DNA of 64,000 bases from Escherichia coli (GTDB lineage Bacteria > Pseudomonadota > Gammaproteobacteria > Enterobacterales > Enterobacteriaceae). This document shows positions 42,168 through 44,668 of this stretch, piece after piece; the first letter of the stretch is position 1; the number at the start of each line of letters is the position of its first letter. Position numbers and translations under genes: made by a program. The notes beneath the pieces were generated by a model. It was not told the origin of the DNA, did no database searches, and saw only the letters and a program-made list of their open reading frames with translations. Where the stretch lies: the NCBI RefSeq assembly GCF_030013595.1, contig NZ_CP122768.1. One strand, 5' to 3'.

Positions 42168-43319
42168 ATGTCACTTGTCACCGATCTACCCGCCATTTTC
42201 GATCAGTTCTCTGAAGCTCGCCAGAAAGGCTTTCTCACCGTCATGGATCTCAAGGAGCGCGGCATTCCGCTGGTTGGCACCTACTGCACCTTTATGCCGC
42301 AAGAGATTCCGATGGCAGCCGGTGCAGTTGTGGTTTCGCTCTGTTCCACCTCTGATGAAACCATTGAAGAAGCCGAGAAAGATCTGCCGCGCAACCTCTG
42401 CCCGCTGATTAAAAGCAGCTACGGCTTCGGCAAAACCGATAAATGCCCCTACTTCTACTTTTCTGATCTGGTGGTCGGTGAAACCACCTGCGACGGCAAA
42501 AAGAAAATGTATGAATACATGGCGGAGTTTAAGCCTGTTCATGTGATGCAGTTACCGAACAGCGTTAAGGACGATGCCTCGCGTGCATTGTGGAAAGCCG
42601 AGATGCTGCGCTTGCAAAAAACGGTAGAAGAACGTTTTGGGCACGAAATTAGCGAAGATGCTCTGCGCGATGCCATTGCGCTGAAAAACCGCGAACGTCG
42701 CGCACTGGCTAATTTTTATCATCTTGGGCAGTTAAATCCTCCGGCGCTTAGCGGCAGCGACATTCTGAAAGTGGTTTACGGCGCAACCTTCCGGTTCGAT
42801 AAAGAGGCGTTGATCAATGAACTGGATGCAATGACCGCCCGCGTTCGTCAGCAGTGGGAAGAAGGCCAGCGACTGGACCCGCGTCCGCGCATTTTAATCA
42901 CCGGCTGCCCGATTGGCGGCGCAGCAGAAAAAGTGGTGCGCGCGATTGAAGAGAATGGCGGCTGGGTTGTCGGTTATGAAAACTGCACCGGGGCGAAAGC
43001 GACCGAGCAATGCGTGGCAGAAACGGGCGATGTCTACGACGCGCTGGCGGATAAATATCTGGCGATTGGCTGCTCCTGTGTTTCGCCGAACGATCAGCGC
43101 CTGCAAATGCTCAGCCAGATGGTTGAAGAATATCAGGTCGATGGCGTAGTTGATGTGATTTTGCAGGCGTGCCATACCTACGCGGTGGAATCGCTGGCGA
43201 TTAAACGTCATGTGCGTCATCAGCACAACATTCCTTATATCGCTATTGAAACAGACTACTCCACCTCAGATATCGGGCAGCTCAGCACCCGTGTCGCGGC
43301 CTTTATTGAGATGCTGTAA
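42168..43319 (+). CDS. yjiM: 2-hydroxyacyl-CoA dehydratase-like protein (HgdB-like)
   Basis: 383 aa from MSLVTDLP; paired with the downstream activator-ATPase-like gene. Confidence 0.8.
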   Translation: MSLVTDLPAIFDQFSEARQKGFLTVMDLKERGIPLVGTYCTFMPQEIPMAAGAVVVSLCSTSDETIEEAEKDLPRNLCPLIKSSYGFGKTDKCPYFYFSDLVVGETTCDGKKKMYEYMAEFKPVHVMQLPNSVKDDASRALWKAEMLRLQKTVEERFGHEISEDALRDAIALKNRERRALANFYHLGQLNPPALSGSDILKVVYGATFRFDKEALINELDAMTARVRQQWEEGQRLDPRPRILITGCPIGGAAEKVVRAIEENGGWVVGYENCTGAKATEQCVAETGDVYDALADKYLAIGCSCVSPNDQRLQMLSQMVEEYQVDGVVDVILQACHTYAVESLAIKRHVRHQHNIPYIAIETDYSTSDIGQLSTRVAAFIEML

Positions 43320-43328
43320 GGAGTGGCA

Positions 43329-44092
<764 letters not shown>

Positions 44093-44096
<4 letters not shown>

Positions 44097-44359
44097 AAGA
44101 GTTTTTATTTTTATTTCACTCCACGGTCGGCGTCATACAAACCCGTAAGGCGTTGCAGGCAGCGGGCATGACTTTTCGCGTCAGCGATATTCCCCGTGAT
44201 TTACGCGGCGGCTGCGGGTTATGCATTTGGCTGACCTGTCTGCCCGGCGAGGAAATACAATGGGTGATCCCTGGGCAGACCGAAGCGATATATTGCCAGC
44301 AGGGCAGCGACTGGCAGTGTGTGGTGCATTACGATTCAGAAGCGTCAACCAGGCAATAG
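44093..44359 (+). CDS. small Cys-containing protein (DUF3343-like), translationally coupled to yjiL
   Basis: 88-aa ORF overlapping the yjiL stop by 4 nt (ATGA); contains a GGCGLC motif. Confidence 0.5.
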
Positions 44360-44668
44360 GACCTTTAAATATAAAGCCCGGATATTTGGCTGCACATAAT
44401 CCTGCATGAAGGAAGTTGTATTAAATATCTCGCCTGATGTGAAATATTTCCCATCCACAAAATGAGCGATTTTTGATAGCACCTTACTATTGCGCGTCTA
44501 AAATACAATATACATTGTATTATACTTAAACCATAATTATACATAAAGAAATAAAATGATTACCGGGTGTGGTTATGATAAAGATAAGTTTCAGCGTGAA
44601 GCTTATCTTTCCCCACCCCCTGATTATTTTAGATTTAGAAGAACATTTCACAATTCAAGGATAAAAAT

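What the first reader, a model, noticed from the sequence alone, without database searches (positions are those of the whole stretch)
44093..44359. Small Cys-motif ORF coupled to the yjiM-yjiL dehydratase-like pair
An 88-aa ORF overlaps the yjiL stop by ATGA and contains a GGCGLC motif. Its tight coupling to a 2-hydroxyacyl-CoA-dehydratase-like component and its ASKHA-type activator ATPase suggests a third subunit or a redox or sulfur-carrier partner of this uncharacterised radical-enzyme-like system.
Basis: inference. Interest (0 to 1): 0.3.

Follow-up and report, generated by a model that had tools for sequence, protein, structure and literature searches.

The report
ytiA: small cysteine protein beside YjiM-YjiL
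The small ORF is the real, already annotated E. coli gene ytiA, an untested single-cysteine "Se/S carrier" (DUF3343) protein kept next to an ATP-driven iron-sulfur reductase, a pairing that also occurs in other bacteria among sulfur and selenium-handling genes.

Summary
Window 44093..44359 (+) is an 88-aa ORF whose ATG overlaps the yjiL stop as ATGA, and it carries GGCGLC at residues 39-44.

It is an allele of E. coli ytiA, which RefSeq annotates as a DUF3343 or "putative Se/S carrier" protein. It matches Pfam PF11823 at E = 6e-13 and occurs in 5385 of 5426 complete E. coli genomes.

yjiM is better described as a double-cubane [8Fe-9S] reductase (DCCP) than as a dehydratase, and yjiL is its ATPase partner.

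The order yjiM-yjiL-ytiA is kept in all 60 gammaproteobacterial loci examined. The stop/start overlap is retained and dN/dS is about 0.23. The closest Firmicute yjiML loci lack a separate DUF3343 gene.

Across the family only Cys41 is invariant. Cys44 is not conserved, so this is not a CxxC protein. The predicted fold is ferredoxin-like, not TusA-like.

Elsewhere DUF3343 genes abut YedE, TusA/YedF, cysteine desulfurase/selenocysteine lyase and SelD genes. In 67 de-replicated metagenomic DCCP loci, 14 carry DUF3343, usually touching the DCCP or ATPase gene.

Best reading: YtiA is an accessory Cys-based sulfur or selenium carrier for YjiML, not an obligate third subunit. The gene is already known, and no DUF3343 protein has been tested experimentally in the papers searched.

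The parts
42168..43319 (+). yjiM: double-cubane [8Fe-9S] cluster reductase (DCCP, the short 'class II' type)
   Evidence: NCBIfam NF040772 scores 530.9 bits against a cutoff of 350, and Pfam HGD-D matches at 6e-122. phmmer to PDB 6ENO gives E = 7.8e-75 with Cys40, 59, 78, 93, 108, 273, 302, 304 and 335 aligned. RefSeq annotates a CDS at the same coordinates.
43323..44096 (+). yjiL: ASKHA-type activator/electron-transfer ATPase. The longest ORF starts at GTG 43323; the RefSeq start corresponds to 43329.
   Evidence: TIGR00241 matches at 4.9e-108 and Pfam BcrAD_BadFG at 1.9e-75. RefSeq CDS.
44093..44359 (+). ytiA (the finding): 88-aa DUF3343 / PF11823 'putative Se/S carrier' protein
   Evidence: Conserved downstream of yjiL in all 60 gammaproteobacterial loci. 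dN/dS is about 0.23. The AF2 model has pLDDT 91.
44093..44096 (+). ATGA overlap of the ytiA start with the yjiL stop, a signature of translational coupling
   Evidence: Sequence. The -4 nt overlap is kept in 45 of 57 orthologous loci and a -1 nt overlap in 7.
44207..44224 (+). GGCGLC motif. Cys41 (44213-44215) is the family-invariant cysteine; Cys44 (44222-44224) is specific to Enterobacteriaceae.
   Evidence: Alignments A2 and A3 give invariant F8, P34 and C41, and near-invariant L21, G42 and Y67. Cys44 is replaced in Aeromonas, Hafnia and Morganella. In the model Cys41 lies in the loop of residues 33-42 between strands 2 and 3.
44304..44359 (+). Variable 3' end of ytiA. The window-type allele differs here from the K-12 type.
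   Evidence: K-12-type genomes match only nt 1-211 of the ORF. The protein alignment diverges after residue 70. blastn similarity to K-12 ends at window 44303. Residues 85-88 have pLDDT below 50.

Best explanation
The ORF is ytiA, a real, constrained gene for a small single-domain DUF3343 protein. It is translated in step with yjiL as the last gene of a yjiM-yjiL-ytiA operon.

By homology to the solved DCCP system, YjiL uses ATP to push a low-potential electron into the double-cubane [8Fe-9S] cluster of YjiM.

Inferred: YtiA is an accessory carrier, not a structural subunit. Its one invariant cysteine, Cys41, sits on the exposed loop between strands 2 and 3 of a ferredoxin-like fold. There it would hold a sulfane sulfur or selenium atom as a persulfide or selenylsulfide, received from a cysteine desulfurase/selenocysteine lyase or a TusA-like protein.

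Most speculative step: YtiA presents that atom to, or accepts it from, the ATP-energised cluster of YjiM. One example would be reductive release of selenide or sulfide for SelD.

My confidence by step:
- Identity as ytiA/DUF3343: about 0.95.
- Functional partner of YjiML: about 0.8.
- Cys41-based S/Se carrier: about 0.5.
- Selenium specifically: about 0.3.
For: Identity:
- Pfam PF11823 matches.
- RefSeq names the gene 'ytiA: DUF3343 domain-containing protein / putative Se/S carrier protein'.

Partnership with YjiML:
- The triad is present in all 60 gammaproteobacterial loci, with the overlap conserved.
- YtiA-like proteins of only 35-37% identity (P0134, P0139) again sit in HGD-D / BcrAD_BadFG / DUF3343 triads.
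- yjiM (5381 of 5426) and ytiA (5385 of 5426) are both near-universal in complete E. coli genomes.
- In a DCCP-centred metagenome survey, DUF3343 occurs in 14 of 67 de-replicated loci and in 11 of 34 loci of at least 8 kb. Most copies lie 0-19 nt from a DCCP or ATPase gene, and Pfam confirmed every copy I checked.
- Control: none of 60 gammaproteobacterial flanks contains a TusA, Aminotran_5, SelD or YedE gene.

Carrier role:
- There is a single invariant Cys.
- DUF3343 genes overlap or abut Aminotran_5 genes, TusA/YedF and YedE, and sit beside SelD, SelA and SelB.
- Some clusters read DCCP - ATPase - SelD - TusA+DsrE - DUF3343 - Aminotran_5.

Literature:
- DUF3343 has been proposed as a Se/S chaperone with a conserved Cys (PMC5322559).
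- duf3343 is among the five genes that most often overlap selD (bioRxiv 10.1101/2022.04.13.486033).
- 955 of 970 double-cubane proteins scoring above 400 bits to NF040772 are in SelD-containing assemblies (bioRxiv 10.1101/2022.07.06.499078).
Against: - I found no experiment on any DUF3343 protein in the papers searched. The 'carrier' label is itself an inference from gene context.
- The closest Firmicute YjiML pairs lack an adjacent DUF3343 gene.
- Only about a fifth to a third of diverse DCCP loci carry one.
- The DCCP review describes a two-component system and reports acetylene reduction by DCCP with DCCP-R, Mg-ATP and dithionite (PMC7317905).
- The E. coli locus itself has no SelD, YedEF or desulfurase neighbour.
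- The fold is generic ferredoxin-like, closest to PII, CutA, UreE and DUF2179, and is not TusA-like. A regulatory or metal-binding role for a single Cys is therefore not excluded.
Confidence: 0.5

Rival explanations
1. YtiA is a maturation factor. It would deliver the ninth, bridging chalcogen (sulfide, or selenide as Haft raised as a formal possibility) or otherwise help to assemble or repair the double-cubane cluster of YjiM, rather than carrying a substrate.
For: The S/Se-trafficking contexts are the same as for the main reading. DCCPs co-occur with SelD, and the possibility that selenium is part of the cofactor has been raised (bioRxiv 10.1101/2022.07.06.499078). A DUF3343 domain is fused to a HydE-like radical-SAM cofactor maturase next to HydF in L063.
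Against: A dedicated maturase should accompany most DCCPs, yet DUF3343 is adjacent in only 14 of 67 loci and is absent from the Firmicute yjiML loci. A copy elsewhere in those genomes could not be checked.
Confidence: 0.15
2. YtiA is a small regulatory or structural subunit with a PII-like ferredoxin fold. It would bind YjiL or YjiM and modulate ATPase or electron transfer, with Cys41 acting as a redox or ligand sensor rather than a carrier.
For: The best Foldseek matches are PII/GlnK proteins (E about 0.016, TM about 0.5), whose functional T-loop lies between strands 2 and 3, where Cys41 sits. The gene is translationally coupled to yjiL.
Confidence: 0.15
3. YtiA is a general sulfur/selenium trafficking protein that merely shares an operon with yjiML in Gammaproteobacteria and has no direct mechanistic link to the reductase.
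For: Most DUF3343 family members sampled outside the YtiA clade sit in clusters without any DCCP.
Against: The stop/start overlap with yjiL is kept over deep divergence, down to 35% identity. At least two different DUF3343 sequence groups recur next to DCCP or ATPase genes in unrelated metagenomic lineages.
Confidence: 0.12
4. The ORF is a chance or non-functional reading frame in the yjiL 3' flank.
For: Many spurious ORFs of similar length occur in the window. The promoter and terminator scans are no better than shuffled sequence.
Against: The Pfam match, conservation in all 60 loci, dN/dS of about 0.23, a confident fold prediction and the RefSeq CDS all argue against it.
Confidence: 0.01

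Closest known systems
DUF3343 / Pfam PF11823 'Se_S_carrier' proteins of YedE-YedF-DUF3343 and selD-linked clusters
   Same: The HMM matches above threshold, the size is similar (78-90 aa), and the same invariant Cys lies in a P-x6-C-G loop. YtiA is a member of this family.
   Different: YtiA and its clade sit after a DCCP/ATPase pair, not after YedE, TusA or a desulfurase (against 36-38, 57, 58). Enterobacteriaceae add a second Cys (C44) and further Cys residues at positions 49, 68 and 76.
TusA / YedF / SirA-like sulfurtransferases (PF01206)
   Same: These are also small single-Cys proteins that relay persulfide sulfur. They are frequent immediate neighbours of DUF3343 genes. YtiA may work like one.
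SufE / CsdE sulfur acceptors of cysteine desulfurases (comparison from my own knowledge)
   Same: The proposed logic is the same: a small partner whose single Cys on a loop accepts the persulfide from a class-V PLP enzyme. DUF3343 genes overlap Aminotran_5 genes in L096 and L098.
   Different: No sequence or fold relationship was detected, and the E. coli ytiA locus has no desulfurase.
DCCP / DCCP-R two-component ATP-driven reductase of Carboxydothermus hydrogenoformans (PDB 6ENO, 7YYL)
   Same: YjiM shows 39% identity to the 6ENO fragment in alignment A4, and phmmer against 6ENO gives E = 7.8e-75 over 358 residues with all nine shared Cys aligned. YjiL is the homologous ATPase.
   Different: The described system has two components only (PMC7317905). 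The E. coli type adds the coupled DUF3343 gene and lacks the N-terminal channel-closing helices, according to the same review.
PII / CutA / UreE-C ferredoxin-like small proteins
   Same: They share a beta-alpha-beta-beta-alpha-beta core. The loop between strands 2 and 3 carries the key residue, as the T-loop does in PII.

Membership tests
DUF3343 / PF11823 Se_S_carrier | Match to the family HMM above Pfam's gathering score | tested here: met
   48.4 bits against a cutoff of 25, E = 6.4e-13, residues 4-59
DUF3343 / PF11823 Se_S_carrier | Highly conserved cysteine (described in PMC5322559) | tested here: met
   Cys41 is invariant in 33 diverse sequences and in the orthologue sequences
DUF3343 / PF11823 Se_S_carrier | Small stand-alone protein of about 80-100 aa | tested here: met
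   88 aa, a single predicted domain with pLDDT 91
DUF3343 / PF11823 Se_S_carrier | Gene neighbourhood of Se/S trafficking genes (YedE, YedF, selenocysteine lyase, SelD) | tested here: not met
   The E. coli locus has none. Its neighbours are yjiM and yjiL, a pair that in other lineages does sit among such genes.
DUF3343 / PF11823 Se_S_carrier | Actual binding or transfer of S or Se | not testable with these tools
   I found no experimental report for any family member in the papers searched
TusA/YedF sulfurtransferase (PF01206) | PF01206 HMM match and a CPxP active-site motif | tested here: not met
   No match at E up to 1. The motif is GGCGLC.
TusA/YedF sulfurtransferase (PF01206) | TusA-type alpha/beta sandwich fold | tested here: not met
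CxxC thiol-disulfide redox proteins | Both cysteines of the CxxC conserved | tested here: not met
   Cys44 is Ala, Ser or Gly in Aeromonas, Hafnia and Morganella and varies across the family
Obligate subunit of the DCCP / 2-hydroxyacyl-CoA-dehydratase-type enzyme | Encoded with the catalytic and ATPase genes wherever these occur | tested here: not met
   A stand-alone DUF3343 gene is absent from all 21 Firmicute yjiML loci (one has only a HydE-fused domain) and from 53 of 67 metagenomic DCCP locus groups
Obligate subunit of the DCCP / 2-hydroxyacyl-CoA-dehydratase-type enzyme | Co-purifies with, or is required for activity of, the enzyme | not testable with these tools
   The review describes a two-component system (PMC7317905). 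YjiML itself has not been tested.
Double-cubane cluster protein (for the neighbour YjiM) | NF040772 equivalog score and the conserved cluster cysteines | tested here: met
   530.9 bits against 350. All nine Cys shared with 6ENO align. The review's literal spacing pattern does not match YjiM.

The most novel reading that the evidence does not exclude
YjiM-YjiL-YtiA, and the DCCP - ATPase - DUF3343 - YedF - SelD - selenocysteine-lyase clusters of anaerobes, form an ATP-driven, very-low-potential selenium (or sulfane-sulfur) mobilising system. In it the DUF3343 protein presents a Cys-bound chalcogen to the double-cubane cluster for reduction to selenide or sulfide. Alternatively it supplies the bridging atom of the cluster. 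Either would give double-cubane proteins a physiological role and would explain their near-perfect co-occurrence with SelD.
Probability: 0.25. Interest if true: 0.75.

Novelty: already known. Interest (0 to 1): 0.4.

Why it matters
The physiological substrate of double-cubane cluster proteins is unknown, and so is the reason they track SelD. How selenium is handed over inside cells is also only sketched.

ytiA places the one DUF3343 protein found at this locus directly behind a DCCP/ATPase pair in a genetically tractable organism. The same pairing recurs in anaerobes, there embedded among SelD, YedF and desulfurase genes.

Both questions therefore become testable with simple E. coli knock-outs and with mass spectrometry of an 88-aa protein.

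As a genome feature, however, the ORF is ordinary. It is a named, annotated core gene of a known but uncharacterised family.

Tried and rejected
Searches that gave nothing useful:
I used a DCCP-centred scan instead.
- A sequence search of the PDB with YtiA found nothing meaningful.
- Rfam and PADLOC found nothing in or around the ORF.
- Promoter and terminator scans were no better than shuffled sequence, so I make no claim about operon boundaries from them.

Ideas rejected:
- The CxxC redox idea, because Cys44 is not conserved.
- TusA homology.
- Selenocysteine read-through after the C-terminal Cys of some DCCP-linked DUF3343 proteins, because their stop codons are mostly TAA.

Misleading hits:
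- The long 'hits' P0158 and P0193 are false positives. P0125, P0143 and P0221 each join a partial YjiL-type (BcrAD_BadFG) segment to the YtiA-like stretch that made them hits; I read them as gene calls that run across the yjiL-ytiA junction, not true fusions.
- YjiN (DUF445) is a frequent neighbour (40 of 62 loci) but not a constant one, so I do not count it as part of the unit.
- The review's literal 7-Cys spacing pattern does not match YjiM. The alignment to 6ENO shows the cysteines are nevertheless all present.

Not attempted:
- A YjiM-YtiA linker-fusion structure prediction, because the tool returns no interface metrics.

Full report
**Observation**

The ORF listing gives an 88-aa ATG ORF at 44093..44359 (+). 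The sequence reads ...cgccgATGAaag. The yjiL stop TGA (44094-44096) and the ORF's ATG (44093-44095) therefore overlap as ATGA. Residues 39-44 are GGCGLC.

**Identity**

The protein matches Pfam PF11823 (Se_S_carrier, formerly DUF3343) at E = 6.4e-13, 48.4 bits against a gathering score of 25. No NCBIfam model matches it.

RefSeq annotates exactly this CDS as 'DUF3343 domain-containing protein' or 'putative Se/S carrier protein', and in K-12-type genomes names it ytiA.

The DNA is found in 5385 of 5426 complete E. coli genomes, and yjiM in 5381.

The window carries a minority allele. 639 genomes match the ORF over at least 80% of its length, while K-12-type genomes match only nt 1-211. The two proteins, 88 and 85 aa, diverge after residue 70.

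The minority allele comes with a low-GC insert between ytiA and yjiK that carries a pentapeptide-repeat gene.

**Neighbours**

YjiM is better described as a double-cubane cluster protein (DCCP) than as a dehydratase:
- NF040772 scores 530.9 bits against a cutoff of 350.
- phmmer against the solved DCCP 6ENO gives E = 7.8e-75; identity to the 6ENO fragment in alignment A4 is 39%.
- Cys40, 59, 78, 93, 108, 273, 302, 304 and 335 all align.

YjiL is the activase-type ATPase (TIGR00241, 4.9e-108). The DCCP review treats YjiM as a 'class II' DCCP with an open channel. It speaks of a two-component system and does not mention a third gene (PMC7317905).

**Conservation of the arrangement**

A genome scan with YjiM returned 80 loci. 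Adding the two annotated E. coli loci, all 60 gammaproteobacterial loci carry yjiM-yjiL-DUF3343 in that order. They cover Escherichia, Citrobacter, Klebsiella, Raoultella, Kosakonia, Kluyvera, Atlantibacter, Trabulsiella, Phytobacter, Cedecea, Hafnia, Morganella and Aeromonas.

Further signs that the gene is real and linked to yjiL:
- The stop/start overlap is -4 nt in 45 and -1 nt in 7 of 57 loci. Purine-rich Shine-Dalgarno-like strings lie upstream in many of them.
- Nei-Gojobori dN/dS over 964 orthologue pairs is 0.22-0.24.
- Two distant YtiA-like proteins (35-37% identity) are again the third gene after HGD-D and BcrAD_BadFG genes.
- One metagenomic contig keeps an intact DUF3343 gene behind a deletion remnant of yjiL.

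In contrast, 21 Firmicute loci have no stand-alone DUF3343 gene within 6 kb, even with a family-wide HMM. These are Enterococcus, Vagococcus, Asaccharospora, Acetoanaerobium and Oscillospiraceae, with YjiM at 61-66% identity. The only hit is a DUF3343 domain fused to a HydE-like radical-SAM protein.

No other neighbour is constant. YjiN occurs in 40 of 62 loci.

**Anatomy of the protein**

A profile search of 1.8 billion representative proteins, followed by alignment of 33 diverse members, shows three invariant positions: F8, P34 and C41. L21, G42 and Y67 are nearly invariant.

Cys44 is about 90% conserved in Enterobacteriaceae. It is Ala, Ser or Gly in Aeromonas, Hafnia and Morganella and varies elsewhere. 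CxxC is therefore not a family feature.

AlphaFold2 with this alignment gives pLDDT 91.2 and pTM 0.81:
- The topology is b1-a1-b2-loop(33-42)-b3-a2-b4-b5.
- Cys41 lies at the end of that loop.
- The last four residues are disordered.

**What the family keeps company with**

Contexts of diverse members:

| Context |
|---|
| YedE - TusA - DUF3343, with a divergent Aminotran_5 and LysR gene |
| The same cluster flanked by SelD, SelA and SelB |
| TusA+DsrE - DUF3343 |
| Aminotran_5 overlapping DUF3343 |
| TusA - DUF3343 - Aminotran_5 |
| YedE - DUF3343 |

This agrees with three papers:
- Lin et al. proposed a Se/S chaperone with a conserved Cys. Their STRING table for Slackia already lists an 'activase' and 'HGD-D subunits' among DUF3343 partners (PMC5322559).
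- Kayrouz et al. found duf3343 among the five genes that most often overlap selD.
- Haft found 955 of 970 double-cubane proteins scoring above 400 bits to NF040772 in SelD-containing assemblies.

**DCCP-centred survey**

I built a DCCP alignment headed by the 6ENO sequence and scanned metagenome contigs with it. This gave 80 loci at 48-74% identity to 6ENO, which collapse to 67 groups at 90% nucleotide identity.

| Gene near the DCCP | All 67 groups | 34 groups with a locus of at least 8 kb |
|---|---|---|
| DUF3343 | 14 | 11 |
| TusA-like | 15 | 12 |
| Aminotran_5 | 7 | 4 |
| SelD | 5 | 4 |
| YedE | 5 | 4 |
| Any of these | 22 | 16 |

Among the 80 loci, 15 of 22 DUF3343 copies lie 0-19 nt from a DCCP or ATPase gene. 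The orders seen are DCCP-ATPase-DUF3343, DCCP-DUF3343-ATPase and DCCP-DUF3343. Human-gut contigs carry DCCP-DCCP-ATPase-SelD-(TusA+DsrE)-DUF3343-Aminotran_5.

Pfam confirmed every assignment I checked. As a control, the same searches found no TusA, Aminotran_5, SelD or YedE gene in the 60 gammaproteobacterial flanks.

DUF3343 is thus a recurrent but not universal neighbour of DCCP systems across lineages. Those systems often sit inside sulfur/selenium-trafficking clusters.

**Mechanism**

- By homology: YjiL plus ATP energises an electron into the YjiM double-cubane cluster.
- Inferred from context: YtiA Cys41 carries a sulfane sulfur or selenium atom received from a desulfurase/selenocysteine lyase or a TusA-like protein.
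- Speculative: the loaded loop enters the open channel of the class II DCCP. There the chalcogen is reduced and released, or is exchanged with the cluster. From my own knowledge, reduction of bound Se(0) to selenide is a low-potential step that would suit an ATP-driven reductase. I did not check the potential here.

Rival readings are cluster maturation, a PII-like regulatory subunit, and mere operon sharing. I keep them at 0.15, 0.15 and 0.12.

**Comparison and novelty**

YtiA is a member of PF11823, and the features that could be tested are met. It may work like TusA, SufE or CsdE, but it is not a member of those families. It is not a CxxC redox protein and not an obligate DCCP subunit.

The gene and its family assignment are already in RefSeq, so the feature itself is already known. 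I found the following nowhere spelled out in the papers searched:
- the constancy of the yjiM-yjiL-ytiA unit;
- the recurrent DCCP-DUF3343 adjacency;
- that together these connect the published SelD-DCCP and SelD-DUF3343 correlations.

That connection is a hypothesis worth testing. It is not a demonstrated function.

Noticed in passing
window 44360-46858 (ORF 44669..46639, + strand): A low-GC insert (0.33-0.35, against about 0.53 for its neighbours) carries a 656-aa pentapeptide-repeat protein between ytiA and yjiK. About 635 of 5426 complete E. coli genomes have it. Some RefSeq records call it a 'type III effector', and it gives only sub-threshold NCBIfam matches to PipB2 and PipB. The number of C-terminal NDSxEKQA repeats differs from the 704-aa homologue in L001.
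   Followed up: partly
window 44304-44359: The ytiA 3' end is dimorphic in E. coli. K-12-type alleles (85 aa) and window-type alleles (88 aa) lose nucleotide similarity after nt 211. The boundary coincides with presence or absence of the pentapeptide-repeat insert.
   Followed up: partly
L063:7995-10488 (- strand), Acetoanaerobium pronyense: A DUF3343 domain is fused to the N-terminus of a HydE-like radical-SAM protein (Radical_SAM plus BATS). It lies next to a HydF GTPase gene, and the pair is convergent with the yjiML homologues about 70 nt away.
   Followed up: partly
L083:912-1297: A metagenomic contig has an intact YtiA-like gene preceded by a 48-aa ORF. That ORF joins the YjiL N-terminal motif (GIGIDSGST) to the YjiL C-terminus. 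It looks like an internal-deletion remnant of the operon that left the small gene intact.
   Followed up: partly
L081:8027-13150, Enterococcus moraviensis: The yjiML homologues are followed by a xanthine-dehydrogenase-family molybdoenzyme, then by Aminotran_5 and SelD genes. This arrangement recalls the selenium-dependent molybdenum hydroxylase trait.
   Followed up: no
L120, L126, L134-L139, L145, L156 (DUF3343 genes next to DCCP genes): A subgroup of DCCP-adjacent DUF3343 proteins has a C-terminal tail ending in a terminal cysteine (...RDKYC...FRGC...FKGC...YRSC). In 8 of 9 cases a TAA stop follows, so this is not selenocysteine read-through. YtiA lacks this tail, although the Citrobacter koseri allele ends ...TIDAC.
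   Followed up: partly
L107, L110, L120, L122, L126, L134-L139, L145, L156, L157, L165-L174, L181: Many metagenomic DCCP loci carry two or three DCCP paralogues, tandem or nearby, with at most one ATPase gene detected.
   Followed up: no
window 42168-43319 (YjiM): The 7-Cys spacing pattern quoted in the DCCP review and in Haft's preprint does not literally match YjiM: the spacers are X18, X18, X29, X164, X28 and X32. Even so, every Cys shared with 6ENO aligns.
   Followed up: yes
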